The notes: generated by a model from the letters alone, not told the origin. Shown: positions 122 to 31,060, numbered from the stretch's first letter. The stretch: DNA of 64,000 nucleotides from Cyanophyceae cyanobacterium (GCA_050331735.1 JBHJGN010000037.1:32001-96000), one strand, 5' to 3'. A program made the numbers and translations.

Positions 122-486
122 CGGGAGACGAGCAACTGTTGGACCACGGGAATGAGTTGTTGCGGATCGACGGGTTTTGCTAAATAGGCACTGGCTCCGA
201 GCATTGTTCCCCAGAGTTTATCCACATCGGTTCCCTTACTGGAATAGATTACCACCGGAATTTGTTTGGTCTCATCATTCGTCTTCAAGCTATGACAAAT
301 TTCAAATCCGCTCTGACCCGGTAGCATCACATCAAGAATAACGAGATCTGGTTTTTGTGACTGTAGCTGGGTTAACGCCTCTTCCCCCGTCGTGACGCTA
401 ATAATTGTTAACCCCATCTGTCGCAGGCAGCGGGTGATAACCTCCGAGTCGGTGAGGCTATCTTCAACAACAAGAACTGTACTCAC
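118..486 (-). CDS. CheY-like single-domain response regulator (PilH/PixH type)
   Basis: Receiver motifs VLVVEDS, DLVILDVMLP, YLAKP; lies downstream of a PatA-type gene. Confidence 0.9.
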   Translation of the reverse strand: MSTVLVVEDSLTDSEVITRCLRQMGLTIISVTTGEEALTQLQSQKPDLVILDVMLPGQSGFEICHSLKTNDETKQIPVVIYSSKGTDVDKLWGTMLGASAYLAKPVDPQQLIPVVQQLLVSR

Positions 487-19086: not shown

Positions 19087-20469
19087 TTAACCCTTTTTAT
19101 TAATGACCATTTTGACTCTACCTGACGGAGCAAGGGTCACGCCTCGTCGCTGCGGTTGTTCCGGTTTACTGCCAACCAAATCTAGCTCATAGTGTTTCAG
19201 GATTGTTGCTAGAACGAGCTTCATTTCCAACAGCGCTAGCGCATCGCCCACACAGCGACGAGAACCGCCACCAAAGGGCAGAAACTCCCAGTTGGCATAC
19301 TGGCGTTCTAGAAAGCGCTCTGGCTGAAACTGTTTGGGATGGGGATAAAGCTCTTCACGCTGATGCACTAAGTAAATACAGCCCATGACTGCCGTTCCCG
19401 GCTCGAGCGGATGACCCATCAGCTCGACTGGTTCTTGAGCAATTCTGGGAAACATGAGCATGGCTACCGGATAAATTCTTAAAGTCTCCTGACAGACGGC
19501 GGTGAGGTAGGGAAGTCGCGCGATGCTCATCGGGTCTTCATCAGCGCTAGCTAGCTCCTGAAGTAATTGTTCTTTGACTTCTGGCAAAAAGTGGCTCCAG
19601 TATAGCGCCCAAGCCATTGCTGTTGCTGTGGTTTCATGTCCAGCAAACAGCAGCGTCATCAGCTCGTCGCGCAGTTCCTGGTCGGTCATGGGGTTTCCCG
19701 CTTCATCCCGCGCCGATAACAGGAGAGAGAGAATGTCTTGGCGTGTTGACTCAGCCTGGGCGCGACGCTGGGTAATTTCAGCGTAAAGAAGTTGATCGAG
19801 CTGCTGCCGTTGATGCACGAAATATTTCCAGGGATTCCAGGGGAGAAAATCCTGCTGGAGAAAGCGAAAGAAGAGAAAGCTGGAGGTTAGGGGAGAGCGA
19901 AAGATCTCGGTCATTGCAGCGAGCAGTTGCTTGAGCTGCTGGCTGGCCTCGCCCTCATGGAGTCCAAAAACAGCTTCGAGAATGACCTGTAAAGAAATCT
20001 GCTGCATCACCGATCGCGCTGAGCAAGGCTGACCGACCTCTAGCTGATTCATCACCGACTTGGTGATGTGGCAAATCAGCTCGCCATAGGTTCGCAGCCG
20101 TTCTCCATGAAAAGGAGGCATGAGTAGCTGCCGTGCTCGCCGATGGCGATCGCCTTCGCGCATGATGACTGAATACTCCCCCACCAAAGGCTCAATGAGG
20201 CGGTTAGCGTAACCAGGAGCTAAAAACGTGCGGCGCTCCTGCATTAGTTGCTGAATGGCCTGGGGATGGCTAACAAACACCAAGTCGCCAAGGGTGAAGC
20301 CAATTTTGGCGGTGAAAAAATCGTCGTAGCGCTTTGCGGCTCCTTCCATAAAGCCGACGGGATTAGCGATCCAATGGGCAAGCTGGACGGGAGCAGGAGA
20401 TGATAGCAGGTTAGGAGAGGGCATAGGCTCTGTTAAATCAGGTATCAGTAACCAGTTATTGGCGAGCAA
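19087..20469 (-). CDS. cytochrome P450 (CYP110-like)
   Basis: AGHETT, ETLR, PERF, FGGGSRRCVG heme motif. Confidence 0.95.
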   Translation of the reverse strand: MLANNWLLIPDLTEPMPSPNLLSSPAPVQLAHWIANPVGFMEGAAKRYDDFFTAKIGFTLGDLVFVSHPQAIQQLMQERRTFLAPGYANRLIEPLVGEYSVIMREGDRHRRARQLLMPPFHGERLRTYGELICHITKSVMNQLEVGQPCSARSVMQQISLQVILEAVFGLHEGEASQQLKQLLAAMTEIFRSPLTSSFLFFRFLQQDFLPWNPWKYFVHQRQQLDQLLYAEITQRRAQAESTRQDILSLLLSARDEAGNPMTDQELRDELMTLLFAGHETTATAMAWALYWSHFLPEVKEQLLQELASADEDPMSIARLPYLTAVCQETLRIYPVAMLMFPRIAQEPVELMGHPLEPGTAVMGCIYLVHQREELYPHPKQFQPERFLERQYANWEFLPFGGGSRRCVGDALALLEMKLVLATILKHYELDLVGSKPEQPQRRGVTLAPSGRVKMVINKKG

Positions 20470-20551
20470 TTCATGAAGTTAACTAGTCACTCACTAAGCA
20501 CTATAGCTGAACACTCAGCACTGTCCATCGGTAACTGCTCACGGGTCACTG

Positions 20552-21922
20552 TTAAATTGAGCTAACGGTAGCCTGAGTAGAGGGGTGAGAAACGCGATCG
20601 CCCGTCACCACTAGCGGCACCTCGTTGGCTGGGGCAATGGTTAAGCCGCGCCGCGCTGCCTTGATGGGCTTATTGTCTCTCAGAGCAAGCTGGTAACGGG
20701 AGAGAACGGTCGCCAACACTAGGGTCATTTCTAACATAGCAAGGGCCGCTCCTAAACAGCGACGATTGCCGCCACCGAAAGGCAGAAATTCGTAAGCAGA
20801 ATACTGACGCTCAAGAAAGCGCTCTGGCCTGAACTGCTTGGAGTCTGGGTAGAGGTCTTTGCGGTGATGAATTAAATAGATGCAGGGGAAGAAGAGCGTA
20901 TTCGCTTCATACTGGTGTCCCATTACTTCTACTTCAGAGCGAGCAATACGAGGAAACGTCACCGGAACCACGGGATAGATGCGCAGCGTTTCTTGGCAGA
21001 CAGCGGTCAGATAGGGAAGACGGGCGATCGCCATTGGGTCTTCTACTCCATCTAGTTCTTGCAGCAGCTTGTCCTGGACTTGAGGATGCTGGCAAATCCA
21101 GTAGAACGCCCAGGCAAGAGCCGTTGCCGTGGTTTCGTGTCCGGCAATGAGGAGCGTGAGCAGTTCGTCTTGGAGTTCTTCGTCGGTCATGGCTTCACCC
21201 TGCTCATCTCGCGCCGCCATCATCAGGCTAAGCACGTCTGTACCGCTGCTATGGCAAGCGCGGCGCTCCTCAATTTCTGCTTGCAGCAGAGCGCGAATTC
21301 GCTGCTGGCGCTGCTGAAACTGCTGCCAAGGACTCCACGCCCCCCACTTTTTTTGCAGCCAGGGAAAGAATAGGGGACTAGAGCGCAGAGGCGAATCGAA
21401 CATATTGAGCATTGCTGCCAGTAGTGGCTTGAGCTGCTCGTAGCGATCGCCTTCGGCCAGGCCAAATACCGCCTGAAGAATTACCTCTAAGGTAATCTCC
21501 TGCATGGCAGCGCGAGCTTCAAACGGCTGCCCCACCTGCCACTGACTCGCTACCTGCTCAGTAATCTGGCAAATAATATCGCTATAGGTGCGAATACTTT
21601 CACCATGAAAGGACGGCATCAGCAGTTTGCGATCGCGGCGGTGGCGATCGCCATCGAGCACTATCAAAGAGTTTGCTCCCACTAGCGGCTCAACGATATC
21701 ATTACCCCGTCCAGCATCAAACTGTCTGGCATCGACACTGAGGATTTCCTGGACCCCTTGAGGATTACTCATTAGTACAAAGGGTTCAAAGTTGGCTAAG
21801 CGCAGGGTAAAGGTATCGCCATAGCGTTTGGCACACCTCTCCAAAAAATTTAACGGATCGGCGACCCAGTAGATGAGCTGCAATAGGGAAGGAATTCTGG
21901 GACCACTTGGTAAATAACTCAT
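20552..21922 (-). CDS. cytochrome P450 (CYP110-like)
   Basis: AGHETT, ETLR, PERF, FGGGNRRCLG heme motif. Confidence 0.95.
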   Translation of the reverse strand: MSYLPSGPRIPSLLQLIYWVADPLNFLERCAKRYGDTFTLRLANFEPFVLMSNPQGVQEILSVDARQFDAGRGNDIVEPLVGANSLIVLDGDRHRRDRKLLMPSFHGESIRTYSDIICQITEQVASQWQVGQPFEARAAMQEITLEVILQAVFGLAEGDRYEQLKPLLAAMLNMFDSPLRSSPLFFPWLQKKWGAWSPWQQFQQRQQRIRALLQAEIEERRACHSSGTDVLSLMMAARDEQGEAMTDEELQDELLTLLIAGHETTATALAWAFYWICQHPQVQDKLLQELDGVEDPMAIARLPYLTAVCQETLRIYPVVPVTFPRIARSEVEVMGHQYEANTLFFPCIYLIHHRKDLYPDSKQFRPERFLERQYSAYEFLPFGGGNRRCLGAALAMLEMTLVLATVLSRYQLALRDNKPIKAARRGLTIAPANEVPLVVTGDRVSHPSTQATVSSI

Positions 21923-22023: not shown

Positions 22024-24750
22024 CTAAATACTGTATGATTTTGGTGCTTCGCAACATACGCGAAAGCCGAAGGTGAAGTCGCGGCTTATATGCGTTAGGT
22101 AGAAGCGAAAAGCAGAACGGCAAGATTCTGGACCATAGAACCAGCAACCGCCTCGCAGCACCTTTCTATTGTCCGCCGTATTTTTTTCTAGCCATGTCCT
22201 GCCGTCTTCTGGTGCTCCTTTGTAATTACTATGCCAGTCATCTTCGCACCACTCTGATACGTTCCCATGCAGATCGTGTAATCCCCAATGATTGGCAGGA
22301 AAGCTTCCTACGTCAGTTGTTTGTTCCCGGTATTCGCCTTTCGGACTACCTTTGTAGGTAGCGTTTCCATTGTAGTTAGCGAGGTTTGTCGTTATTATTC
22401 TACCGAAGTGAAAAGGAGTATTTGTTCCGGCTCGGCAAGCATACTCCCACTCTGATTCACTGGGTAAGCGATAGTTTTTTCCTGTTTTGGCTGACAACCT
22501 CCTACAAAACTCTACTGCCTCCTCCCAACTCACCTCCTCTACCGGATGATTGTCTCCTTTAAAGTGAGATGGATCGAAGTCAAGCGCTCGATCGATTTGT
22601 GACCAGGCAGCGACAATACGCCACTGTGCCTGCGTTATTGGGTAACGTCCCAGGTAAAAGGCTGACAGAGTTACCTGATGTCGAGGTTGTTCCCGGTCAC
22701 AATCAAGTTCTACGCCTTCAACTTCATTTCCTGGGGCTCCCATGACAAAGGTTCCACTTGGTATAGAGATCATTTCTAGTCCAATCTCTTCATTAAGAAC
22801 TTCAGTGTAGCCCCAGTTAGTAGCGCGGCGGCGAACGATTGCTAATTGTCCAACTTGACTAGAGGGGGAACTGAACGAGCCTCCACGTCCTTGCCATTCT
22901 ATCTGGGCTGTCTCAAACTCGAATCGCTCCAATATATGGGTAATTTTGGCTGGCTCGTACTCAAAATCTTGTAAAGGCGGAAAGTTAATGAATTCGGCGA
23001 CTTCGTATTCAATATCTTCGAGGGGAAGCTCTTTGGTCGTAGTTGTGTTTCCATTGAGGAGAGAATAACGACGAGCCAGAGTCGCATAGTCGCCTCCAAG
23101 ACGGCAGAGCGTATTAAGACCTACCCGTGCAAAGGGCAGCGCAGCTTCGCCCAAATTATGCTCTGACTCCTGCAAGTAAACAAGAAATGCTTCAAAACTG
23201 TTGAGGCTGAGACCCGCTTTCTGACTGATGACCTGCGATAGACGATTGAGGACGCTAACGGCTTTGTCTTCCGGCAATCCATCCAGGAGCAAATAGCGCA
23301 CGCGATCGCTCGTATCTGTTGCTCCATCCCCGAAAAACTCATAGTGAGTTTCCTCATCTTCTGTATCGCAGCGCCGCAGTAACCCGCTCAGCAATACTTC
23401 TGCAACATGGGCTTGCTGTGCTTCTGGGAGAAACTCATCCCGCAGGAGGTCGATGACGGGCAAACTGACAGAGGTTGCCGCCATCAATCCGGCCAGTTTC
23501 TGCGCCGTTTGGGATGCCGTTGCCTGAAACAGGGCAACCCGCTGCCGTGCCGTCCGGGATGTCAGTGATTGCAAAGCGGGAGTTTCGGTAGCACGTTCTC
23601 GCACAAACGCCAGTTCAAAAGTTCGCCCAGGGATAGGTTCTCCTGTCCCTGCCACTACCTGTGCCCAGCGATGAAGAGGATTCGGATCGAGGGTAACGAT
23701 AGGCAGCGTCAGCAGGCGCTTGTCTATGGGTTGTAAGGACTCTTCCTCGTCTTCTGCCCACTCATCCCTGTCATCGAGGATTGGCAGCCCGTACACCTCT
23801 AGCTTGGCGTTGGGCGTTCCTGGACTGATTGAGCTTAATTGCACTCGATATCCATCGCTCAGTGCCGTTCGTCCCCATAGCCGCTCCGGGAGCATCTGTA
23901 CAATGGCAATGGGCTGCACCTCCGACCATCGCCGCAGGGTTTCGTGAATTAGCCCCTGTCGCCACAGCGCTGACGTACAGTCAGTGACGAATAGCACCAG
24001 TCGTCTGCCGCTGGGGTCGAGGATTTCTTTGGGGTTCCGGGGGCGTTGACTCGTTTTGGATTGAGTTTTGAAGGTATTCCAGCGGGGAAAAAGTTGGACT
24101 GTGCTATTTTGTGCTTCGAGTCGCCAGGTTCGTACTGTCCGAAAGGCGCCGTGGTATTCGGTGAGATGTTGCAGCTCAGCAATCGCTCTTTCCCACAGTA
24201 CTGTCGTCTTTGAGCCTTCTACGACCAAATCTAGGTCAAGCCAGCGTTCGGGACGGGGGCGTTTTCTAGGCATCCACACGCGGGTTTCGGCAATTTGCGT
24301 GACGGTTTCCTCTTCATCGAGGTCGAACCTTACTTTCGACGGGACTTTTCGCATCAGGGGCTTGAGAGATCGCGCTAGGTCGAGGCGCGTCCGTAGCGCT
24401 GGCGCTGCTGTGGCTGGAAACGGCATGCCTGTGGGTTGTTCTGCTGAGCGATCGTCCTGAACTGAGGCTGGCTCTGAAACTGATTCCGATCCAGAGGGTC
24501 TGTCTGTGACTAGAGCGAAGTCTGATTGCTCGGCGGTTGACGTTTCAGTTATTTCAGGGAGTGGCGTTGTCTTCTCTCTCTTGGTTTGCTTATTGTCGAT
24601 GTCCTGACGCACTGCTGCTCTCGGCTCGATAAACTGAGTGAGCCAGAGGATATCGGCAATATCTACGGCGTTAACGTCTAGCCCAGACTGCTTTAACCTG
24701 GACGCGAACTGTCCGATTGTTGGTCTTCGCTGCTGCTCAAATGTTTCCAC
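22024..24750 (-). CDS. vWA-like (SAV_2336 N-terminal type) protein fused to a C-terminal FGE-sulfatase/CLec domain; vWA component of a VMAP ternary system
   Basis: DIADILWL, RSLKPLMRKVPS...LDEEETV, LDLVVEGS, RRLVLFVTDC, QMLPERLW, HVAEVLLSGLL; C-terminal FVMGAP, RLPSESEWEYACRAG, DLHGNVSEW, LRGGCW. Confidence 0.85.
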   Translation of the reverse strand: METFEQQRRPTIGQFASRLKQSGLDVNAVDIADILWLTQFIEPRAAVRQDIDNKQTKREKTTPLPEITETSTAEQSDFALVTDRPSGSESVSEPASVQDDRSAEQPTGMPFPATAAPALRTRLDLARSLKPLMRKVPSKVRFDLDEEETVTQIAETRVWMPRKRPRPERWLDLDLVVEGSKTTVLWERAIAELQHLTEYHGAFRTVRTWRLEAQNSTVQLFPRWNTFKTQSKTSQRPRNPKEILDPSGRRLVLFVTDCTSALWRQGLIHETLRRWSEVQPIAIVQMLPERLWGRTALSDGYRVQLSSISPGTPNAKLEVYGLPILDDRDEWAEDEEESLQPIDKRLLTLPIVTLDPNPLHRWAQVVAGTGEPIPGRTFELAFVRERATETPALQSLTSRTARQRVALFQATASQTAQKLAGLMAATSVSLPVIDLLRDEFLPEAQQAHVAEVLLSGLLRRCDTEDEETHYEFFGDGATDTSDRVRYLLLDGLPEDKAVSVLNRLSQVISQKAGLSLNSFEAFLVYLQESEHNLGEAALPFARVGLNTLCRLGGDYATLARRYSLLNGNTTTTKELPLEDIEYEVAEFINFPPLQDFEYEPAKITHILERFEFETAQIEWQGRGGSFSSPSSQVGQLAIVRRRATNWGYTEVLNEEIGLEMISIPSGTFVMGAPGNEVEGVELDCDREQPRHQVTLSAFYLGRYPITQAQWRIVAAWSQIDRALDFDPSHFKGDNHPVEEVSWEEAVEFCRRLSAKTGKNYRLPSESEWEYACRAGTNTPFHFGRIITTNLANYNGNATYKGSPKGEYREQTTDVGSFPANHWGLHDLHGNVSEWCEDDWHSNYKGAPEDGRTWLEKNTADNRKVLRGGCWFYGPESCRSAFRFYLTHISRDFTFGFRVCCEAPKSYSI

Positions 24751-25775
24751 AGTCGTTCGATGAGGTCGTCTGGAGTATGAACATTGTCACTTACGTTGGG
24801 TGCTCGTTCGCGGGTAACCAGATAGATAGCGTTGAGGAGCTGGTCTGTTGCTAAGTCGCCTTTGCTGCGGTCGTTGCGCTTGTTGACAAACCGCGTGATC
24901 AGCTGCTGGATCAGTTCTTCCGATTGGGCAATTAGCTTTTCCCCATCCTTTTCCTGCTTGAGGTGAGCTTTGACAATGGCTTCGAGGCGCTCTTCGTCGG
25001 GTTCTGCCATTGTTAGCCGCACGCAGCGACGTAAGAAGGGAGGCGGAAAGTCTCGCTCGCCGTTACTGGTTAGAACCATCAGCGGAAACTGCTGACTGGT
25101 AATTTTGCCCCCCTTAATAGTTGCTGTCGTATCGGCAAAGGTAAATTCTTGTTTGTCTTTATAAGCTGTTCGTACCGTCACCTCTGGCTTTTTCTCTTCA
25201 ATTCGCACCAGTTCCGGTATTTCAAACTCCCCTTCTTCAAAAACGGTGAGCAGATCGTTGGGCAGGTCGATATCGCTTTTGTCGATTTCGTCTACGATTA
25301 ACACGCGGGGCTTGTCAGAGGGGAGAAGGGCAGTTCCGAGGGATCCCAGACGAATATAGTTGCCGATATTGTCGAAATTGCCCCGCTCTTTCTCGCCAAC
25401 ATCCTGCAAGCGCGCGATCGCATCGTAGAGATACAGACCGTCCTTGAGGGTAGTCCGGGTGGTGATCGGCCAGTAGAGCACCTCTCCGAGGTTCAGTTCG
25501 CGGGCGATCGCATAGGCGAGGGAGGTTTTGCCGCTGCCCGGTTTGCCCGTTACAAGCAAGGGTCGCCGCAGATACAGCGCCGCATTCACTAGCTCGATTT
25601 CCTGGGGCTGAGCCTGAAACGTTTTTCCCCGTTCCTGCTTGCGACGGTCAGACTGTCTCCAGGGAGGGGGAGGAGGTAGATGGGCGAGCGGGTCTAAGCC
25701 TGGATCTGGATTGGGTTCTCCGGTTCCTTTGAAGATGGGCTGAAAAATTGGCTGAATCTTAGGCTGGTCGTTCAT
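24693..25775 (-). CDS. MoxR-family AAA+ ATPase of a VMAP ternary system
   Basis: LPPPPPWR, VNAALYLRRPLLVTGKPGSGKTS (Walker A), VLIVDEIDKSDIDLPNDLL (Walker B), TSNGERDFPPPFLRRC, ATDQLLNA. Start taken at MNDQ. Confidence 0.92.
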   Translation of the reverse strand: MNDQPKIQPIFQPIFKGTGEPNPDPGLDPLAHLPPPPPWRQSDRRKQERGKTFQAQPQEIELVNAALYLRRPLLVTGKPGSGKTSLAYAIARELNLGEVLYWPITTRTTLKDGLYLYDAIARLQDVGEKERGNFDNIGNYIRLGSLGTALLPSDKPRVLIVDEIDKSDIDLPNDLLTVFEEGEFEIPELVRIEEKKPEVTVRTAYKDKQEFTFADTTATIKGGKITSQQFPLMVLTSNGERDFPPPFLRRCVRLTMAEPDEERLEAIVKAHLKQEKDGEKLIAQSEELIQQLITRFVNKRNDRSKGDLATDQLLNAIYLVTRERAPNVSDNVHTPDDLIERLWKHLSSSEDQQSDSSRPG

Positions 25776-25779
25776 GACC

Positions 25780-27570
25780 TTAACAAGCCTCCTGATCAAA
25801 TTGCAGGTCCATCGTGGGCGGCACAATCTTCGCATCTTCCCAAACTAGACTAAGATGACCCCCCAGGCAATGGTTGTCATCTTCCCTCAGTGCGTCGAGC
25901 CTTTCTTCATAAATTCGCTGAGGGAGTTCGGCTACGGTGCGGTCTAGGATACGATCAACTTCATGACATAGTTTTGAGTGTCTTACCCACAGTGCAACAG
26001 GGAGTGCTGTTTTTCTAGCGATAAATTCAAAGACGCTCTCAACTTGCTCTGCTGATAAATTTTCCAGGATTGCCATCTCAGCAGTCTTTAATCCCAACAG
26101 TTCTGCATTTTTTGTTGTATCAACCCAGACGAATGTTTCCCGCGCAGTATGTTGTGATTTCGCTTCTATATGCTGCCATTTATCTTGCCAGCGCCTAAAG
26201 TACTTCTTCCCCGTCGGTGATTGGTTGAGATCGGTTCGCATTACCACTTTATACTGACTTCCCAGGGTTAAATCTGACAACGTTTTAGAGGAGTCGAAAT
26301 CGCGATCGAGCCAAGCACGCGGCACAAAAAAGTGAACCATTGGCTCGTTTAAGGTCGATTTCTCTTCTAGGCAAGTTTCAACGAAGTCTGGCAAATCTGC
26401 ATAGGGAAGAGTATGTTCTTGCAGCAAGTAGGGCAATGGTTCTTGCGGGTTGTAGGTATGGCGATCGCTAATCTCCCACATTGAGATCCAAACCTTTTCC
26501 TTGTCTTTTTCGTCTGGTCTCACTTCTACCACTAAATGTTCGGACGAGTCAGCGGAAGAAACGTTGCGCTCTCGTTTTTCTAAGATGGCGCGGCTCTGCA
26601 AGCTATCGAAGTAAAATCCGCGATACTCAACCCAATTTTTAATTTGTTGGTACATGGAACCCGATACCGCATCCATTGTTGCCAGAAAAATTGCAAACTG
26701 TGTCAGTCGATCAACGTTATCCCAACCGCGATTTCCTAACTGGCTCAAGCTTAGCAGCCGCGACTGCAACATCTTTTTCTCCCCCCAGACAGAACCAGAA
26801 TCGCAGAGGCGAAAGGCGGTGGCGATCGCACTGCTGAGTTTCTGCTGGTTGTCATTAGAAAGTTGTTGCAGATGGTTTTCGATCAGATCGCACAGGCTAT
26901 AAACACTAAGTTTTTTGAGAACGCCGTCTAGCTCTTTTTTCGGAATGGCGTATGCCTTGCTTCTTTGCTCATCTCTGGAGACTAACGCCGTAGCAATCAT
27001 GCCAATGACGCAGGTTCGTTGTTCATTCCAAACAGGTGCGCCGCTAAATCCTGCTTGAATTGTTTCATCGTTGGGATTACCTGCTTTATAAAACTGAAAG
27101 CGTCCTCCAGCAGTGCGTATTTTGGGAATGTATGCATCTGAGCGCTCACCGTTTTCATTGCTAAAGCCATAAACAGAATGTTCGTCGTTTTCAATATCTG
27201 ACAAACTGACTTGAACAAGCGGAATTGGCTTAGATTCACTCGGTTCCGCTTTGAGTAGTTTTAACCCAGCAACATCCCCTCGACTGACGCTATAAGGGAG
27301 CCAAGCTACCACTTTTGCCTTAATTTTGTCCCCGTCAGCGAGAATAGGAAAATCGAGGAATACCAGTTCTTTAACGACTTCTTTGTAAGAAGCAGATTTT
27401 TGTTTGTCAAAGTCGATACCGACCGCCTGTAAGACAACGTGGGCGCAAGTCAGCACGTAACCAGGAGCCACTAGGAATCCCGTCCCGATCGCCGTCTCTG
27501 TGTCTTGGTAGAAAATCCGCGCAATAGATTGTTCGTAATCTTCCCAAGTGAAAGTCACTTCTTCTGCCAT
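25780..27570 (-). CDS. trypsin-like peptidase fused to a VMAP C-terminal domain
   Basis: Triad motifs LTCAHV / DVAGLKL / GFSGAPV; C-terminal HFFVPRAWL, LGSQYKVVMR, WQDKW, PVALWVR, HLSLVWED..PP typical of VMAP-C. Confidence 0.85.
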   Translation of the reverse strand: MAEEVTFTWEDYEQSIARIFYQDTETAIGTGFLVAPGYVLTCAHVVLQAVGIDFDKQKSASYKEVVKELVFLDFPILADGDKIKAKVVAWLPYSVSRGDVAGLKLLKAEPSESKPIPLVQVSLSDIENDEHSVYGFSNENGERSDAYIPKIRTAGGRFQFYKAGNPNDETIQAGFSGAPVWNEQRTCVIGMIATALVSRDEQRSKAYAIPKKELDGVLKKLSVYSLCDLIENHLQQLSNDNQQKLSSAIATAFRLCDSGSVWGEKKMLQSRLLSLSQLGNRGWDNVDRLTQFAIFLATMDAVSGSMYQQIKNWVEYRGFYFDSLQSRAILEKRERNVSSADSSEHLVVEVRPDEKDKEKVWISMWEISDRHTYNPQEPLPYLLQEHTLPYADLPDFVETCLEEKSTLNEPMVHFFVPRAWLDRDFDSSKTLSDLTLGSQYKVVMRTDLNQSPTGKKYFRRWQDKWQHIEAKSQHTARETFVWVDTTKNAELLGLKTAEMAILENLSAEQVESVFEFIARKTALPVALWVRHSKLCHEVDRILDRTVAELPQRIYEERLDALREDDNHCLGGHLSLVWEDAKIVPPTMDLQFDQEAC

Positions 27571-27872
27571 TTCAGCGTTATTTCGTAATTTGCCTCTCCG
27601 CCAACCTTGGTGAGTACCGCCCCTACTTCACCGTTGAGCTTAACACTAAACTTTACCTCTACCTCGTCTGTCGGCTCGATGACTGCATCTAGCTTTTTCT
27701 TGACCGATTGAATCATAGGCAGCAGGTTATCTAAAGCCTGAGCGAAAGTTTTTCTCGCAGTTGCAGCTATCTCGTTGGGCGCCCTCGAAATCGGTCGAAT
27801 TTCTTCGACATCTTCAACTTCAACAAGAATTCTTCCGCCTTCACCCGTGTCGAATTCGACAAGCTGTGCCAT
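27555..27872 (-). CDS. Trypco1 (trypsin-co-occurring, CU044_2847-like) protein
   Basis: ILVEV...DEVEVKFSVKL..EVGAVLTKVGGEANYEITLKW; overlaps the trypsin gene start by 16 nt. Confidence 0.85.
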   Translation of the reverse strand: MAQLVEFDTGEGGRILVEVEDVEEIRPISRAPNEIAATARKTFAQALDNLLPMIQSVKKKLDAVIEPTDEVEVKFSVKLNGEVGAVLTKVGGEANYEITLKWQKK

Positions 27873-27982
27873 TAGCTAAACGTCTCCTGAAATCACTTCG
27901 GCAGTAATACCTCAATAGTTTATACAGTAGTTGCCCCTGAATTTCCGTATTTTTTCTCAAAGGAGATCAAAAAATAAATCGA

Positions 27983-27998
27983 CTCGCCGTTAGGTGAG
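27983..27998. other. DNA hairpin 3' of the FGE gene (DGR target hairpin-like)
   Basis: CTCGCC-GTTA-GGTGAG, ~25 bp past the stop codon; flanks shared with 29554-29569. Confidence 0.6.
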
Positions 27999-28023
27999 AA
28001 ATCAAAGGACCAAGAGAAAAGGG

Positions 28024-28974
28024 CTAAAGTGCCTGAGCGCCAAAAGTCCTCGGCATCTTGCAACACACTCGAACACCGATATCTTTGAGGCGGTAGTCAC
28101 GCAAATCCCCGTAGCGGTTAGTAGAACGGCAATTCTTCGGATACACGAGCCAAGAACCACCCCGCAGAAGCTTATCAGTATCTGTCGCGTTCTCCTCTAT
28201 CCATGCGCTTCCATTCACTGGTGCTCCTCTATAGCTATCATGCCAATCATCTTGACACCATTCCCAGACATTTCCGTGCATATCGTGTAGTCCAAAATTA
28301 TTTGGGGGAAAGATACCTACTTCTGTCGTTTCTCTTCGGTATTTTCCCACTATGCCTTTCCCGTAAGTTCCTTTATAAAGAGTATCGCCAATCTTTTCGT
28401 CCTGAGCGCGATAGTTTGCTAGTTCGTCACTCAGTGTTTCGCCAAAATGAAAAGGAGCTTTTGTCCCCGCTCGACAGGCATATTCCCACTGCGCCTCGCT
28501 GGGCAGGTGGTAGGTTCTACCTGTTTTGACTGATAATCGCTGACAAAACTCTATCGCCTCTTCCCAAATCACATTTTCCACGGGACGGTTGTCTCCTTTA
28601 AAGTGCGATGGATCTGAGTTTAGCTTGCACTTGTCTTTGGGCCAGTTGGCAACGATGCGCCATTGAGTTTGGGTGACAGGATATCGCCCCATCAAAAACG
28701 ATGAAACTATGACTTCATGTTGCGGTCGTTCATCGTTGTAACTTTCCAGTTCATCTTCCGGTGCTCCCATCAGGAATTTGCCACTAGGAATCAGCACCAT
28801 ATCCAAGCTAACTTCGTCACTGAGGGTTTCGATGAAGTGTTTGCCCCTGCGCCGATAGCGGCTGACGAGAATACGTTTTTCGGCGGTTTCTTCTGCCATT
28901 TGTTGGAGCTGCGTTTTGGACCGGACCACTGAATTTAATGTCCGGTTGGATAACTCTTGGGAGTTTCCTACCAA
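28024..28974 (-). CDS. stand-alone FGE-sulfatase/CLec protein, putative DGR target (ATG start may be 28899)
   Basis: FLMGAP, YPVTQ, LPSEAQWEYACRAG, DMHGNVWEW, LRGGSW...CRS...GVRVCC. Confidence 0.9.
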   Translation of the reverse strand: MVGNSQELSNRTLNSVVRSKTQLQQMAEETAEKRILVSRYRRRGKHFIETLSDEVSLDMVLIPSGKFLMGAPEDELESYNDERPQHEVIVSSFLMGRYPVTQTQWRIVANWPKDKCKLNSDPSHFKGDNRPVENVIWEEAIEFCQRLSVKTGRTYHLPSEAQWEYACRAGTKAPFHFGETLSDELANYRAQDEKIGDTLYKGTYGKGIVGKYRRETTEVGIFPPNNFGLHDMHGNVWEWCQDDWHDSYRGAPVNGSAWIEENATDTDKLLRGGSWLVYPKNCRSTNRYGDLRDYRLKDIGVRVCCKMPRTFGAQAL

Positions 28975-29085
28975 GAAGCCCTAATCTTACCTTAAAGCGC
29001 TGGCGAATGAATTGGTGGACTACAAACCGTAATCCGCTATTAGAGTTTCCAATTTGAGGAAAGCGATCGCCCTGAGAAGTATATA

Positions 29086-29439
29086 TTACGGCTGCTGCTC
29101 TCCTGCTAGCCGAGAGAGCGATTGAGCAATGCTAGCCATGTTCTCAGCAAGCGTAACTCTATCTTCATTGAAACCTTGAATGATTTCAAACATAGTTGCT
29201 TGATGAGCTGTTAATGCCGAAACATCTCTAGTTAACTGTGCTATTTGAGCATCGGTTCGCCGACGGTCACGAACGACATCTGAAGTTAAAGCCTCAATGG
29301 CCTTAGCATTAGAGTTAATCCTGGCATCAGTCTGAACCGACTGCTGAGCCAATTGCTCTAGCAAAGCTTCTATTCTGTCGAGGCGATCGCTTGGCGTTCC
29401 CGAAGGGCGATCGCCTCCATCGGGATTAGTTATCGGCAT
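29086..29439 (-). CDS. small coiled-coil hypothetical protein
   Basis: DRLDRIEALLEQL...INSNAKAIEAL heptads; AGGAG ribosome-binding site upstream. Confidence 0.75.
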   Translation of the reverse strand: MPITNPDGGDRPSGTPSDRLDRIEALLEQLAQQSVQTDARINSNAKAIEALTSDVVRDRRRTDAQIAQLTRDVSALTAHQATMFEIIQGFNEDRVTLAENMASIAQSLSRLAGEQQP

Positions 29440-29553
29440 ACTCCTAGCAATGTTTACTGTCTGATTGTTGTCTATTTCCTTGGAGATAGCGATCGCCTTC
29501 AGAAGGTACGGTCTCGTATGTTTTCATCCTAATGCTTTCTAAAAAAAATTAGA

Positions 29554-29569
29554 CTCGTCTAACGGCGAG
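29554..29569. other. DNA hairpin 3' of the FGE gene (DGR target hairpin-like)
   Basis: CTCGTC-TAAC-GGCGAG, ~25 bp past the stop codon. Confidence 0.6.
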
Positions 29570-29594
29570 ATATCAAAGGGCTAACCCCTAAAAG

Positions 29595-30437
29595 CTAAGG
29601 GCTAAAGTGAAGAATCCTCGGCACCTCGCAACACACACGAAACCCAATATTGCCGTAGCGGTAGTAGCGTGGATCGCTGCGGCGGTAAGCAGAACGGCAA
29701 TACCACGGAGCGCTGTTCCAAGCACCGCCCCGCAGCAGCTTGTTAGTCTGCGTTCCGCCTGCTCCCAGCCACGCCCTACCGTCTACTGGTGCCCCTTCAT
29801 AGCTATCATGCCAGTCATCTTCGCACCACTCCCACAGATTTCCATGCATGTCGTGTAATCCCCACCGATTGGCTGGAAAACTTCCTACATCCATCATCCC
29901 ACCTCGATATTTTCCTTCGAGGCTGCCGTTGTAAGTTTTCGTAGTGTCGTAGCTCGCCAACTCTGCCGTAATCATTTCGCCATAGTGGAAGGGCGTTTCT
30001 GTTTCTGCCCGACAGGCGTATTCCCACTCGGCTTCACTCGGTAGGCGATAGCTTCTCCCCGTTTTCGCTGATAGCCGCCGACAAAATTCCTTAGCGTCTT
30101 CCCAGCTCACCTGCTCTACAGGTCGATTCTCGCCTTTAAAGGTCGATGGGTTTCGCTCTAGCTCCCGCTCAACTAGCGGATAACCTGCCACCACGCGCCA
30201 CTGCGCCTGAGTCACCGGATACCGCCCCAGCAAAAACGACTCCAGCTTCACTCGATGTTGCGATCGCTCGGAGCCACTACTTTCTGGCTCACTCTCTGGT
30301 GCGCCCATCAAAAACTCACCCGCCGGAATAAGCATCAGCGTCAGGGTTACGCCCTCAGCCAGTTGTTCGTGCAGGCATTTATTTCTCCGTCTGTACCGAT
30401 GGAGCATTAGGCCAGAACTGGCAGGAGCGTTAGTCAT
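29595..30437 (-). CDS. stand-alone FGE-sulfatase/CLec protein, putative DGR target
   Basis: FLMGAP, RLPSEAEWEYACRA, DMHGNLWEW, LRGGAW...CRSA...IGFRVCC. Confidence 0.9.
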   Translation of the reverse strand: MTNAPASSGLMLHRYRRRNKCLHEQLAEGVTLTLMLIPAGEFLMGAPESEPESSGSERSQHRVKLESFLLGRYPVTQAQWRVVAGYPLVERELERNPSTFKGENRPVEQVSWEDAKEFCRRLSAKTGRSYRLPSEAEWEYACRAETETPFHYGEMITAELASYDTTKTYNGSLEGKYRGGMMDVGSFPANRWGLHDMHGNLWEWCEDDWHDSYEGAPVDGRAWLGAGGTQTNKLLRGGAWNSAPWYCRSAYRRSDPRYYRYGNIGFRVCCEVPRILHFSP

Positions 30438-31060
30438 CTACCAGCCCTTAACACTTGTTCAGCCGTCAGTTTCAAATCCGGGAAGGTTGGAGAGACAATG
30501 GTTTGCTTACCCCGAAGTTTCTGAATTTCATACTCCTCATTCACTAGCATACAAACAGAGAGGGTAGGCTGTTTGGGCTTGCCAATATGTCGAGTACCAC
30601 CTAATCCGGCGTAGTCTGCAATCCAATATTCGGGAATACCTAAAACCGCGTAGTCTTCGACCTTACGGGCATAATCATTTTGCCAGTTGCTACTAACGAC
30701 TTCCGCTACAAATTTAATCGAACTACCCAGCGTCAGGATCGACTGGTCAGACCAAAGCAGTTCTTTAGTCAATTCATCTCGATCAACAACTGCAACATCA
30801 GGTCGAAATGCTGTCATGCCAGTATTAGAGGGGCGAAATAGACCCCGCTGAAGAACAAACCAATCTAAGCCTATGCTGTCGATGTGAACACAGACCTTTG
30901 CGGTAATGAAGGCTGCAACCTCTTCGTGCAAGCCTGTTGGTTCCAAGTCGAACACCTCTCCATCGATCAGTTCATAACGGTTATAGCTACCATAACAAGC
31001 AAGAAACTCGTCAAAGCTAAGTGGCTTTTGCTGTATTGGTTGATTGATCGCAAGGGTCAT
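30434..31060 (-). CDS. Uma2-family (DUF820) endonuclease
   Basis: YELIDGE, RPDVAVV, VAEVVS, DYARK..Y...GIPEYWI, SPTFPDLKL. Confidence 0.9.
   Translation of the reverse strand: MTLAINQPIQQKPLSFDEFLACYGSYNRYELIDGEVFDLEPTGLHEEVAAFITAKVCVHIDSIGLDWFVLQRGLFRPSNTGMTAFRPDVAVVDRDELTKELLWSDQSILTLGSSIKFVAEVVSSNWQNDYARKVEDYAVLGIPEYWIADYAGLGGTRHIGKPKQPTLSVCMLVNEEYEIQKLRGKQTIVSPTFPDLKLTAEQVLRAGR

What the first reader, a model, noticed from the sequence alone, without database searches (positions are those of the whole stretch)
22024..30437. Three FGE-sulfatase/CLec domains end in a colinear hypervariable cassette: probable remote DGR targets attached to a conflict system
Seen: the 3' ends of three genes (about 22024-22165, 28024-28175, 29595-29745) align with no indels over 31 codons from TGG to TGT TGC. 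A fixed scaffold (W, P, CRS, R, R, G, RVCC) surrounds radically different residues: WFYGPESCRSAFRFYLTHISRDFTFGFRVCC / WLVYPKNCRSTNRYGDLRDYRLKDIGVRVCC / WNSAPWYCRSAYRRSDPRYYRYGNIGFRVCC. Between the latter two I count by hand about 23 differences at codon positions 1-2 versus 8 at position 3, and many variable codons keep a final C or T (AAC/CTC/TTC, TAC/AAC, CGC/TAC/TTC, TAC/CTC/GAC, GCT/TAT/GGT). Known: DGRs mutate template adenines in AAY codons, and cyanobacterial DGR targets are FGE-sulfatase CLec domains with this C-terminal variable region. Inference: these are variable regions served in trans by a reverse transcriptase and template outside the window, giving a diversifying receptor set for the VMAP operon. 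The copy fused to vWA looks more drifted and may no longer be mutagenised.
Basis: partly seen in the sequence, partly recalled or inferred. Interest (0 to 1): 0.85.

Follow-up and report, generated by a model that had tools for sequence, protein, structure and literature searches.

The report
Orphaned DGR variable regions, engine lost
Three sensor-like genes in a bacterial defence operon end in cassettes that a mutagenic retroelement once rewrote, but the assembled genome no longer holds that retroelement, so they are most likely frozen relics of a system already described in print.

Summary
Three FGE-sulfatase genes end in indel-free 31-codon cassettes at 22051-22143, 28060-28152 and 29628-29720 (minus strand).

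The cassettes are colinear with real DGR variable regions. Same-order relatives carry Avd-RT-TR cassettes inside homologous Trypco1-VMAP-MoxR-vWA/FGE operons. In the window, variation piles up on columns that are adenines in the relatives' templates, and AAY-column codons keep a final pyrimidine (C 12/12, A 11/12, B 9/12). B and C also keep the IMH-like 3' flank of real VRs.

The proposed trans-acting engine was not found. The only reverse transcriptase in the 99-contig assembly is an RT-Cas1 fusion. No template repeat exists. Avd survives only as a 39-codon stub on contig C1, beside a paralogous VMAP operon, along with a weak relic of the template spacer.

Best reading: orphaned, frozen VRs after loss of the DGR core. 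The genome is a metagenome bin, so an unbinned or minority intact DGR is not excluded. The link between DGRs and VMAP systems is already published (Kaur 2020; Dore 2024). This is a new member of a known kind, of modest interest.

The parts
22024..24750 (-). Gene A, 908 aa. It has an N-terminal SAV_2336_NTERM region (the presumed vWA component) and a C-terminal FGE-sulfatase/CLec domain.
   Evidence: ORF. Pfam FGE-sulfatase 5e-51 at aa 659-898. NCBIfam NF041121 at 397.6 bits, aa 29-513. No Pfam vWA hit in aa 1-650. 51% identical over its full length to the DGR-diversified 909-aa protein of relative G011.
22051..22143 (-). Cassette A, 31 codons, WFYGPESCRSAFRFYLTHISRDFTFGFRVCC. A VR-type region without an IMH-like flank.
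   Evidence: Coordinates. NNY at 11 of 12 AAY columns. TR-profile score 19.4 bits. The 3' flank lacks CCGAGGAYTYTT and TAGCCCTT.
24693..25835 (-). MoxR-like AAA+ ATPase, 380 aa.
   Evidence: Pfam AAA_5 3.3e-09. About 69% nucleotide identity to the MoxR gene of the G011 DGR-VMAP operon.
25780..27570 (-). VMAP protein, 596 aa: trypsin-like peptidase, then VMAP-M1, then VMAP-C.
   Evidence: Pfam VMAP-C 2.4e-26, Trypsin_2 3.5e-12, VMAP-M1 4.6e-06. 43% identical to the G011 counterpart.
27555..27872 (-). Trypco1 adaptor protein, 105 aa.
   Evidence: Pfam Trypco1 3.7e-22.
28024..28974 (-). Gene B, 316 aa, a stand-alone FGE-sulfatase/CLec protein.
   Evidence: 5.3e-53.
28060..28152 (-). Cassette B, 31 codons, WLVYPKNCRSTNRYGDLRDYRLKDIGVRVCC.
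   Evidence: Coordinates. NNY at 9 of 12 AAY columns. TR-profile score 31.7 bits.
27983..28053 (-). 3' flank of B. It holds an IMH-like CCGAGGACTTTT (28042-28053), TAGCCCTT (28019-28026), a pyrimidine-rich spacer, and an imperfect hairpin CTCACC-TAAC-GGCGAG (27983-27998) followed by a T run.
   Evidence: Motif coordinates. The same layout lies behind genuine VRs in relatives. B and C flanks are identical in 67 of 103 aligned columns, although they read in different frames.
29086..29439 (-). 117-aa coiled-coil-like ORF between C and B. Family unknown, and it may not belong to the system.
   Evidence: ORF. No Pfam or NCBIfam family above cut-off. Not similar to the relatives' Avd by tblastn.
29595..30437 (-). 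Gene C, 280 aa, a stand-alone FGE-sulfatase/CLec protein.
   Evidence: 2.4e-50. Second-best solved-structure match is the DGR variable protein TvpA, 2y3c, E 7.8e-19. An ortholog lies in G010 (one search gives 79% nucleotide identity; aa identity is 79% upstream and 58% in the cassette).
29628..29720 (-). Cassette C, 31 codons, WNSAPWYCRSAYRRSDPRYYRYGNIGFRVCC.
   Evidence: Coordinates. NNY at 12 of 12 AAY columns against a background of 0.38, p=1e-5. TR-profile score 44.2 bits.
29554..29621 (-). 3' flank of C. It holds an IMH-like CCGAGGATTCTT (29610-29621), TAGCCCTT twice (29597-29604 and 29576-29583), and an imperfect hairpin CTCGCC-GTTA-GACGAG (29554-29569) followed by a T run.

Best explanation
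The three cassettes are variable regions (VRs) of the kind a diversity-generating retroelement (DGR) rewrites. Each sits at the ligand-binding C-terminus of an FGE-sulfatase/C-type-lectin domain. The domains belong to a vWA-MoxR-VMAP 'ternary' conflict operon: Trypco1, trypsin-VMAP, MoxR, a vWA-like/FGE fusion, and two stand-alone FGE genes. In an ancestor, or in a donor lineage, a DGR copied an adenine-rich template repeat with an error-prone reverse transcriptase. It then pasted the copy over these 31 codons, randomising positions 1-2 of AAY codons. In this genome the DGR core (Avd, RT, TR) is gone. A paralogous VMAP operon on contig C1 still shows the scar: a 39-codon Avd stub fused to the next gene, and a weak relic of the template spacer. 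The window's VRs are therefore orphaned. They are no longer rewritten, they drift by ordinary mutation, and they now act, if still functional, as three fixed receptor variants. What is shown: homology and colinearity with real VRs, the codon footprints, the absence of RT and TR from the assembly, and the Avd stub. What is inferred: that mutagenesis once acted on these very copies, that the loss is real in the organism and not only in the bin, and the sensor role of the domain (proposed in the literature, untested).
For: (1) Relatives carry canonical DGRs inside homologous operons. In G011 (two loci), G006, G010 and G015 the order is vWA-like/FGE(VR) - Avd - RT (about 360-386 aa open frame) - TR - short FGE(VR). 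Avd was confirmed on the one tested, from G011: NF033474 at 139 bits and PF22296 at 1.2e-21. In eight VR/TR pairs, mismatches fall on 11-18 of 25-30 template adenines and on only 0-4 of 63-68 other sites. A ninth VR (G015_VR1) failed the alignment anchor and was not scored.
(2) The relatives' VRs are the same 31 codons, W to G-F-R-V-x-C, without indels relative to the window's cassettes.
(3) I defined 29 'A columns' as those where at least 3 of 5 relatives' TRs have A. Differences within the window fall on them: B-C 18/29 vs 13/64 elsewhere (p=1e-4), A-B 25/29 vs 18/64 (p=1e-7), A-C 22/29 vs 17/64 (p=1e-5).
(4) At 12 AAY-codon columns the third base is still a pyrimidine in C 12/12 (background 0.38, p=1e-5), A 11/12 (p=0.002) and B 9/12 (p=0.048). 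Paralogs without VR-type flanks give 10/12, 8/12 and 7/12, none significant.
(5) For B-C, third positions are less diverged in the cassette (8/31) than upstream (116/214), p=0.004. That is expected if a shared template overwrote both after the genes split.
(6) B and C keep the VR-type 3' layout: CCGAGGAYTYTT, TAGCCCTT, a pyrimidine-rich spacer, and a hairpin with a T run.
(7) The engine is missing. There is 1 RVT_1 match in the genome, and it is RT-Cas1. tblastn with 5 DGR RTs finds only that gene, at 26-30% identity. A TR profile hits only 8 FGE 3' ends at E<=0.005, and nothing non-coding. blastn at word size 7 finds only paralogs.
(8) The scar. All five relatives' Avd proteins hit C1:116020-116139 at 72-82% identity over their first 36-40 residues only. 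The hit lies just downstream of the C1 vWA-like/FGE stop, and the stub runs into the start of the next FGE gene. A template-spacer profile gives its single hit below E=1 at C1:123233-123292, E=0.005, about 30 nt upstream of a short FGE gene, which is where the spacer lies in relatives.
(9) Two C1 VRs differ at 18/29 A columns but at only 2/64 other columns, so a DGR acted in this lineage not long before its loss.
(10) One contig of run X1 crosses all three VRs with 0 differences, and no variant letters were reported inside the cassettes. This is weak evidence because only contigs were laid.
Against: The genome is a 99-contig bin from a metagenome, so an RT/TR contig could have been left out of the bin. 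The laid data were assembled contigs, which drop rare variants. Dore et al. report incomplete DGR loci whose intact structural variants showed up only in long reads, and the same could hold for the C1 stub. The window itself holds no relic of a DGR core, so the link to the C1 scar is indirect. Window VRs differ from C1 VRs at 17-22 of 64 non-adenine columns. A-column enrichment is not specific on its own, because FGE paralogs without VR flanks show it more weakly (18/29 vs 26/64, 20/29 vs 29/64, 24/29 vs 34/64). B's NNY footprint is marginal (9/12, p=0.048), and four of its cassette codons (GTG, GGG, AAA, TTG) end in a purine, three of them at the 12 AAY columns. The spacer relic is weak (E=0.005). 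Only 12 of 40 same-order relatives hold this RT clade at E<=1e-30, so absence may be old in this lineage, and the footprints may have been inherited at duplication or transfer.
Confidence: 0.7

Rival explanations
1. Live remote targets. The organism still has one or more DGR cores, either on a contig that was not binned or in a structural variant carried by part of the population. B and C, and perhaps A, are still rewritten in trans.
For: The genome is a metagenome bin of 99 contigs. B and C keep an intact IMH-like flank and hairpin. Trans-acting DGRs, and incomplete loci with intact variants in the population, are documented in Thiohalocapsa. Kaur et al. found TRs 'elsewhere in the genome' for some VMAP systems. 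In G010 a truncated, ORF-less copy of the C-ortholog's 3' end differs from the full copy at 12/29 A columns and 1/64 others, so this gene lineage was a target there.
Against: No DGR RT, no TR and no whole Avd were found in an assembly rated 99.98% complete by marker genes. A, B and C differ at 13-18 of 64 non-adenine columns, whereas VRs that share a TR in relatives differ from it at 0-4. Up to three separate unseen templates would therefore be needed. None of five relatives' TRs fits: 18-27 non-adenine mismatches each. B carries purine-ending codons (GTG, GGG, AAA) at three AAY columns, which adenine mutagenesis cannot produce. A single contig at uniform depth crosses all three VRs.
Confidence: 0.12
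2. Ordinary paralog divergence. The three genes are plain duplicates of an FGE-sulfatase lectin. Their C-terminal loops vary because that face binds ligands and is under diversifying or relaxed selection, and no retroelement ever acted on these copies.
For: The fixed scaffold is family-wide. The overall nucleotide identity of the B-C cassette (66.7%) equals that of the rest of the domain (65.9%). A-column enrichment also appears, more weakly, among paralogs C62, C11 and C15, which have no VR-type flank. No DGR core is in the genome.
Against: Third positions in the cassette are less diverged than upstream, while positions 1-2 are more diverged. Selection on unconstrained codons would not produce that combination. 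NNY codons at AAY columns are 12/12 in C and 11/12 in A, against backgrounds of 0.38-0.47. DNA-level conservation continues past the stop codons, in different reading frames, and matches the flanks of genuine VRs. The whole operon is homologous to DGR-served operons. The genome holds an Avd stub next to sister VRs.
Confidence: 0.1

Closest known systems
DGR-diversified VMAP ternary conflict systems of multicellular cyanobacteria (Kaur et al. 2020, eLife, PMC7159879; RT clade 5E of Dore et al. 2024, PNAS, PMC10907252)
   Same: The same parts are present: a MoxR-like ATPase, a VMAP protein with an N-terminal trypsin, a Trypco1 adaptor, a vWA-type component fused to a C-terminal FGE/CLec ('FGS') domain, and extra short FGE genes. 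The VR lies in the last ~31 codons. Relatives' operons 43-51% identical in protein hold the full DGR.
   Different: No RT, TR or whole Avd is in this genome. Kaur et al. state that about 80% of cyanobacterial VMAP systems are DGR-linked (passage seen), and this locus falls in the remainder. Here the two short FGE genes lie upstream of Trypco1. In the relatives fetched, the short target lies downstream of the RT.
Incomplete DGR loci and remote targets of Thiohalocapsa PB-PSB1, especially DGR 1 (Dore et al. 2024)
   Same: These are target genes without a local RT/TR, and DGR components degraded in place. One of them (DGR 1) shows no diversification (passages seen).
   Different: In PB-PSB1 the orphan VRs still match a TR elsewhere in the genome at all non-adenine sites. 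Here no TR exists in the assembly, and the VRs have drifted apart at non-adenine sites.
Treponema denticola TvpA (PDB 2y3c), a DGR variable protein with an FGE-type C-type-lectin fold
   Same: It is the second-best solved-structure match of protein C, E 7.8e-19 over aa 128-271. Its VR is also at the C-terminus of the same fold. Kaur et al. relate the VMAP FGS domains to TvpA.
   Different: TvpA is a spirochaete lipoprotein with a neighbouring DGR, not part of a MoxR/VMAP operon. That description of its biology is recalled, not tested here.
PvdO (PDB 5hha) and formylglycine-generating enzymes
   Same: PvdO is the best sequence match among solved structures, E 3e-34. It shares the Pfam family PF03781.
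   Different: These are enzymes or enzyme-like periplasmic proteins with no hypervariable cassette and no DGR link. I did not test whether catalytic residues are kept in A, B or C.

Membership tests
Complete (active) diversity-generating retroelement | A DGR-clade reverse transcriptase encoded in the genome | tested here: not met
   RVT_1 search of the genome gave 1 match among 7 candidates, an RT-Cas1 fusion. tblastn with 5 relatives' DGR RTs found only that gene, at 26-30% identity. The G011 RT as query gave 0 matches in G000, against 12 of 40 relatives.
Complete (active) diversity-generating retroelement | A template repeat: a second copy of the VR that differs from it only at adenines | tested here: not met
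   blastn at word size 7 with the last 240 nt of A, B and C found only paralogous gene ends. nhmmer with a 5-TR profile hit 8 FGE 3' ends and nothing non-coding at E<=0.005. The two densest AAY windows in the genome (10 of 26 codons each) lie in long unrelated ORFs.
Complete (active) diversity-generating retroelement | Accessory variability determinant (Avd) | tested here: not met
   Only a stub survives: C1:116020-116139, 72-82% identical to residues 1-40 of five relatives' Avd proteins. PF22296 matches positions 3-34 of 107 at 22.5 bits, below the 40-bit cut-off. The frame ends inside the next gene's start.
Complete (active) diversity-generating retroelement | A VR at the C-terminus of a CLec-fold target, with variation confined to positions 1-2 of AAY-templated codons | tested here: met
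   The cassettes are colinear with relatives' VRs. Variation is enriched on A columns. NNY footprint: C 12/12, A 11/12, B 9/12. Drift at non-adenine sites is also present.
Complete (active) diversity-generating retroelement | Target-site cis elements (IMH and a downstream hairpin) | tested here: inconclusive
   B and C have flanks like those of relatives' VRs, but each has one mismatch in the 6-bp stem. A has none of these elements. Function cannot be tested in silico. That a hairpin aids homing is recalled from the Bordetella phage literature.
Complete (active) diversity-generating retroelement | Ongoing diversification in the population | tested here: inconclusive
   Only assembled contigs could be laid. 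One contig spans the locus with 0 differences, and no variant was listed in the cassettes. Contigs drop rare variants.
vWA-MoxR-VMAP ternary conflict system | MoxR-like AAA+ ATPase | tested here: met
   AAA_5 3.3e-09. Homologous to the MoxR genes of relatives' operons.
vWA-MoxR-VMAP ternary conflict system | A VMAP protein with a VMAP-C domain and an N-terminal effector | tested here: met
   VMAP-C 2.4e-26, VMAP-M1 4.6e-06, Trypsin_2 3.5e-12. A Trypco1 neighbour, 3.7e-22.
vWA-MoxR-VMAP ternary conflict system | A vWA-domain component | tested here: inconclusive
   No Pfam vWA hit in aa 1-650 of A at E<=0.1. NCBIfam SAV_2336_NTERM scores 397.6 bits. The protein occupies the position of the vWA component and is 51% identical to it in G011. 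No structure was predicted.
FGE-sulfatase / C-type-lectin fold (PF03781) | Domain match above the curated cut-off | tested here: met
   174.2, 180.7 and 172.0 bits against a cut-off of 23.3.

The most novel reading that the evidence does not exclude
After losing its DGR, this cyanobacterium kept three once-hypermutable sensor cassettes as a fixed, inherited receptor panel that still works within an intact MoxR-VMAP operon. That would be a natural shift from on-demand hypermutation to paralog-encoded diversity. The C1 scar and the two nearly template-identical C1 VRs would mark how recently the switch happened. Relatives often have FGE paralogs but no RT (28 of 30 had hits to the locus DNA; 12 of 40 have the RT), so such frozen panels may be common and unrecognised.
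Probability: 0.3. Interest if true: 0.45.

Novelty: new member of a known kind. Interest (0 to 1): 0.3.

Why it matters
The link between DGRs and VMAP/MoxR conflict systems in multicellular cyanobacteria is already in print, so this locus does not open a new field. Its value is as a worked example of the other end of that story: a defence operon whose hypervariable sensors outlived the retroelement that made them, with the deletion scar still readable elsewhere in the genome. It also carries a practical warning. A VR-like cassette with AAY-type codon footprints and an IMH-like flank does not show that a DGR is active. The RT and a template that matches at non-adenine sites have to be found. 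Finally, it gives simple sequence tests for telling live VRs from fossil ones: NNY at template-adenine columns, third-position homogeneity, and divergence at non-adenine sites.

Tried and rejected
- Avd search with PF05635 found nothing, but it was the wrong model. The G011 Avd scores only 16.5 bits on it and fits PF22296 and NF033474. I repeated the search with PF22296 and with tblastn.
- Rfam on the RT-Cas1 locus found no family.
- I searched G010 for a template serving the C-ortholog and its truncated copy. The best other match was 75% identity, so no TR was found.
- A fuzzy search of the genome for a 27-nt conserved template-spacer string, allowing up to 6 substitutions, gave no hit. That script then crashed and was redone as a profile search. 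The script also crashed part-way and was finished.
- Laying public runs reached assembled contigs only. X1 may be the source sample. X2 and X3 hold only paralog-like fragments. There is no support for VR heterogeneity, and this is no proof of its absence.
- Two scans of metagenome contigs gave 0 matches each. One used a masked pattern of cassette C, the other a 26-nt stretch at its 3' end. The tool notes that records of the window's own genome may be left out.
- The listing of cluster members for A, B and C could not be run because the database was switched off. Near-identical protein variants in other samples therefore remain unchecked.
- Earlier findings of this scan: nothing was shown.
- The terminator scan did not call the hairpins behind B and C, because each stem has a mismatch.
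- None of five relatives' TRs fits the window's VRs: 18-27 non-adenine mismatches each.
- I considered RT-Cas1 as the mutagenic RT and rejected it. It is fused to Cas1 and is only 26-30% identical to the DGR RTs.

Full report
What is in the window. Nine minus-strand ORFs lie between 22024 and 31060. In gene order they are:
- a Uma2-family gene (30434-31060);
- gene C (29595-30437, 280 aa);
- a 117-aa ORF of no known family (29086-29439);
- gene B (28024-28974, 316 aa);
- Trypco1 (27555-27872);
- a trypsin/VMAP-M1/VMAP-C protein (25780-27570);
- a MoxR-like AAA+ ATPase (24693-25835);
- gene A (22024-24750, 908 aa).
A, B and C each end in a Pfam FGE-sulfatase domain, with E-values of 5e-51, 5.3e-53 and 2.4e-50. 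A's N-terminal 500 residues match NCBIfam SAV_2336_NTERM at 397.6 bits. They give no Pfam vWA hit. This is the layout of a vWA-MoxR-VMAP 'ternary' conflict system.

Checking the observation. The three quoted peptides are present exactly. Each is 31 codons, at 22051-22143, 28060-28152 and 29628-29720, and they align without indels. The ratio of position 1+2 to position 3 differences is 2.0-2.9 in the cassette and 0.87-0.89 in the 214 upstream domain codons. The fixed scaffold is not in itself remarkable, because all nine FGE-sulfatase paralogs of this genome carry it with minor changes.

What the relatives show. The window's genome (G000; 99 contigs, 5.57 Mb, 99.98% complete by markers) has only same-order relatives in the held collection. 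Five loci from four of them (two from G011; one each from G006, G010 and G015) hold an RT with a 360-386-aa open frame next to FGE genes. Fetching those loci showed canonical DGRs set inside homologous operons. The order is Trypco1/VMAP/MoxR, then the vWA-like/FGE fusion with a VR, then Avd, RT, a 120-134-nt template repeat, and a short FGE gene with a second VR. The G011 Avd matches NF033474 (139 bits) and PF22296. Across eight VR/TR pairs, mismatches fall on 11-18 of 25-30 template adenines and on only 0-4 of 63-68 other sites. A ninth VR, G015_VR1, failed the regex anchor used and was not scored. A is 51% identical over its full length to the G011 fusion protein whose VR lies next to a TR. 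The VMAP proteins are 43% identical.

Do the window's cassettes carry a DGR footprint? I defined 29 'A columns' from the relatives' five TRs alone (A in at least three). Differences among the window's genes concentrate there: B-C 18/29 vs 13/64, A-B 25/29 vs 18/64, A-C 22/29 vs 17/64, with Fisher p between 1e-4 and 1e-7. This test is not fully specific. Three paralogs without VR-type flanks (C62, C11, C15) show weaker enrichment, p=0.005-0.045, presumably because these are the ligand-face positions. Two further signals are harder to explain by selection.
- At 12 columns where the templates read AAY, the third base is still a pyrimidine in C 12/12 (background 0.38, p=1e-5), A 11/12 (p=0.002) and B 9/12 (p=0.048). 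The three control paralogs give 10, 8 and 7 of 12.
- Third positions in the B-C cassette are less diverged (8/31) than upstream (116/214, p=0.004), while positions 1-2 are more diverged (23/62 vs 103/428). A shared template that overwrote both copies after the genes diverged would produce that pattern.
In addition, B and C share DNA-level similarity past their stop codons, in different reading frames. The shared layout is CCGAGGAYTYTT, TAGCCCTT, a pyrimidine-rich spacer, and a short hairpin followed by a T run. The same layout lies behind genuine VRs in relatives, where the TR differs from the VR just at the AGG. A lacks this flank.

Is there an engine? The RVT_1 search finds one gene, at the end of contig C26. 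It is an RT-Cas1 fusion (Cas_Cas1 2.6e-44). tblastn with five relatives' DGR RTs finds only that gene, at 26-30% identity. The G011 RT as a protein query gives 0 matches in G000, against 12 of 40 relatives at E<=1e-30. blastn at word size 7 with the last 240 nt of each gene finds only paralogs. A profile of the five TRs hits eight FGE 3' ends and nothing else below E=1. The densest AAY windows in the genome reach 10 of 26 codons, and the two that do lie in long unrelated ORFs. A, B and C differ from each other at 13-18 of 64 non-adenine columns, and from every relative's TR at 18-27 such sites. One template could not serve them. The published criterion for trans service is a perfect match at all non-adenine sites (Dore et al., passage seen), and it cannot be met by anything in the assembly.

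A scar elsewhere in the genome. All five relatives' Avd proteins hit one place, C1:116020-116139, at 72-82% identity, but only over their first 36-40 residues. PF22296 matches profile positions 3-34 there, below its cut-off. The sequence shows that this stub starts about 90 nt after the stop of a second vWA-like/FGE gene (896 aa). It runs for 39 Avd-like codons and then into the start codon of the next FGE gene. The rest of Avd, the RT and the TR are missing. That gene belongs to a second VMAP operon, made of EAD1-VMAP-C, EAD1-trypsin and MoxR, with three FGE genes. A profile of the conserved RNA spacer that follows the TR in relatives gives its single hit below E=1 at C1:123233-123292 (E=0.005). 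That is about 30 nt upstream of the third FGE gene, the position the spacer holds in relatives. Two of the C1 VRs differ at 18/29 A columns and only 2/64 other columns. That is almost a pure DGR signature, and it suggests the engine worked in this lineage until fairly recently.

An ortholog comparison. G010 holds an ortholog of C (79% nucleotide identity). Amino-acid identity is 79% over 239 upstream codons but 58% in the cassette, and differences fall on 17/29 A columns vs 7/64 others. Downstream of that ortholog lies a truncated, ORF-less second copy of the gene's last ~270 nt. It differs from the full copy at 12/29 A columns and 1/64 others. No matching TR was found in G010's 500-contig assembly.

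Population data. One public run holds the locus and may be its source. The organism label is a stromatolite metagenome. Only assembled contigs could be laid. One contig of 9687 nt crosses all three cassettes with 0 differences, and no variant letters were listed inside them. Contigs drop rare variants, so this cannot exclude low-level diversification. Two metagenome scans found nothing, and the cluster look-up could not be run.

Conclusion and mechanism. The cassettes are genuine DGR-type VRs by homology, position, codon footprint and, for B and C, flanking cis layout. The mechanism that made them is the known one. An RT copies the TR RNA, misreading adenines, and the cDNA replaces the VR, guided by the constant ends. 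This changes positions 1-2 of AAY codons on the ligand face of the lectin fold. In this genome, as assembled, that mechanism is no longer available, and a paralogous locus shows it was deleted. The window's VRs are therefore most likely frozen (confidence about 0.7). The sensor role of the FGE/CLec domain, and the relay through MoxR to the VMAP trypsin, are Dore et al.'s proposal (section read). Kaur et al. read the same domain as an effector (passages). Neither was tested here.

Comparison with the literature. Kaur et al. 2020 (passages seen) state that the FGS domain is found almost exclusively in cyanobacterial VMAP systems. They state that about 80% of cyanobacterial and gammaproteobacterial VMAP systems are associated with a DGR. 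They also state that the TR lies in the neighbourhood or elsewhere in the genome. Dore et al. 2024 (abstract, section 11 part 1 and passages) place cyanobacterial DGRs of clade 5E on VMAP sensors, and describe remote targets, degraded components and one non-diversifying target. What this genome adds is the RT-less state together with a readable scar. I did not find 'orphan' in Dore et al.. One full-text search for DGR decay in cyanobacteria listed nothing on the point by title or abstract, and I opened none of the 12 listed papers. I make no claim that such fossils are unreported. Supplements were not consulted.

Caveats. The genome is a metagenome bin, and the absence of the engine is absence from the bin. 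The spacer relic is weak. B's footprint is marginal. The window holds no relic of its own. Only 12 of 40 same-order relatives have this RT clade by this query, so the loss, or acquisition of the genes without a DGR, could be old.

Noticed in passing
G000 contig C1:115100-124150 (locus L039 7100-16150): A second VMAP-type operon: EAD1-VMAP-C, EAD1-trypsin, MoxR, an 896-aa vWA-like/FGE fusion, and three FGE genes. It carries a 39-codon Avd stub at C1:116020-116139 and a weak template-spacer relic at C1:123233-123292. Two of its VRs differ almost only at template-adenine columns (18/29 vs 2/64).
   Followed up: yes
L003 (G010 contig C17) about 203-485, minus strand: A truncated, ORF-less copy of the last ~270 nt of the C-ortholog, including VR, IMH-like flank and hairpin. 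It lies downstream of the full gene and differs from it at 12/29 adenine columns and 1/64 others. No matching template was found in that assembly. This may mean that a bare VR-plus-flank fragment is enough to be a DGR target.
   Followed up: partly
L001 (G000 contig C26:2-1657, minus strand): An RT-Cas1 fusion gene running off the contig end (RVT_1 4.4e-39, Cas_Cas1 2.6e-44). It is the only reverse transcriptase found in the genome. The neighbouring 226-aa ORF has no Pfam family.
   Followed up: partly
window 29086-29439, minus strand: A 117-aa coiled-coil-like ORF between genes C and B, with no family above cut-off in Pfam or NCBIfam. It is not Avd-like.
   Followed up: partly
window 30434-31060, minus strand: A Uma2-family putative endonuclease gene (8.1e-28). 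Its stop overlaps the start of gene C by 4 nt, so the two may be co-transcribed.
   Followed up: no
window 19087-21922, minus strand: Two tandem paralogous ORFs of 460 and 456 aa lie directly downstream of gene A. That is the position the Avd-RT-TR cassette holds in relatives. By eye they look like cytochrome P450s. No family search was run on them.
   Followed up: no
L034-L038 (relatives' DGR loci), downstream of each TR: A conserved ~110-nt non-coding stretch follows every TR (GAGTCCAGAC..TTCCAG.GATG...GCATCC.AAAA...). It is presumably the DGR RNA spacer, and it proved useful as a probe for decayed DGRs.
   Followed up: partly
relatives G001-G040: 28 of 30 same-order relatives had DNA hits to the locus, mostly to the FGE domains. 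Only 12 of 40 hold the DGR RT clade at E<=1e-30. RT-less genomes with VR-type FGE genes may therefore be common.
   Followed up: no
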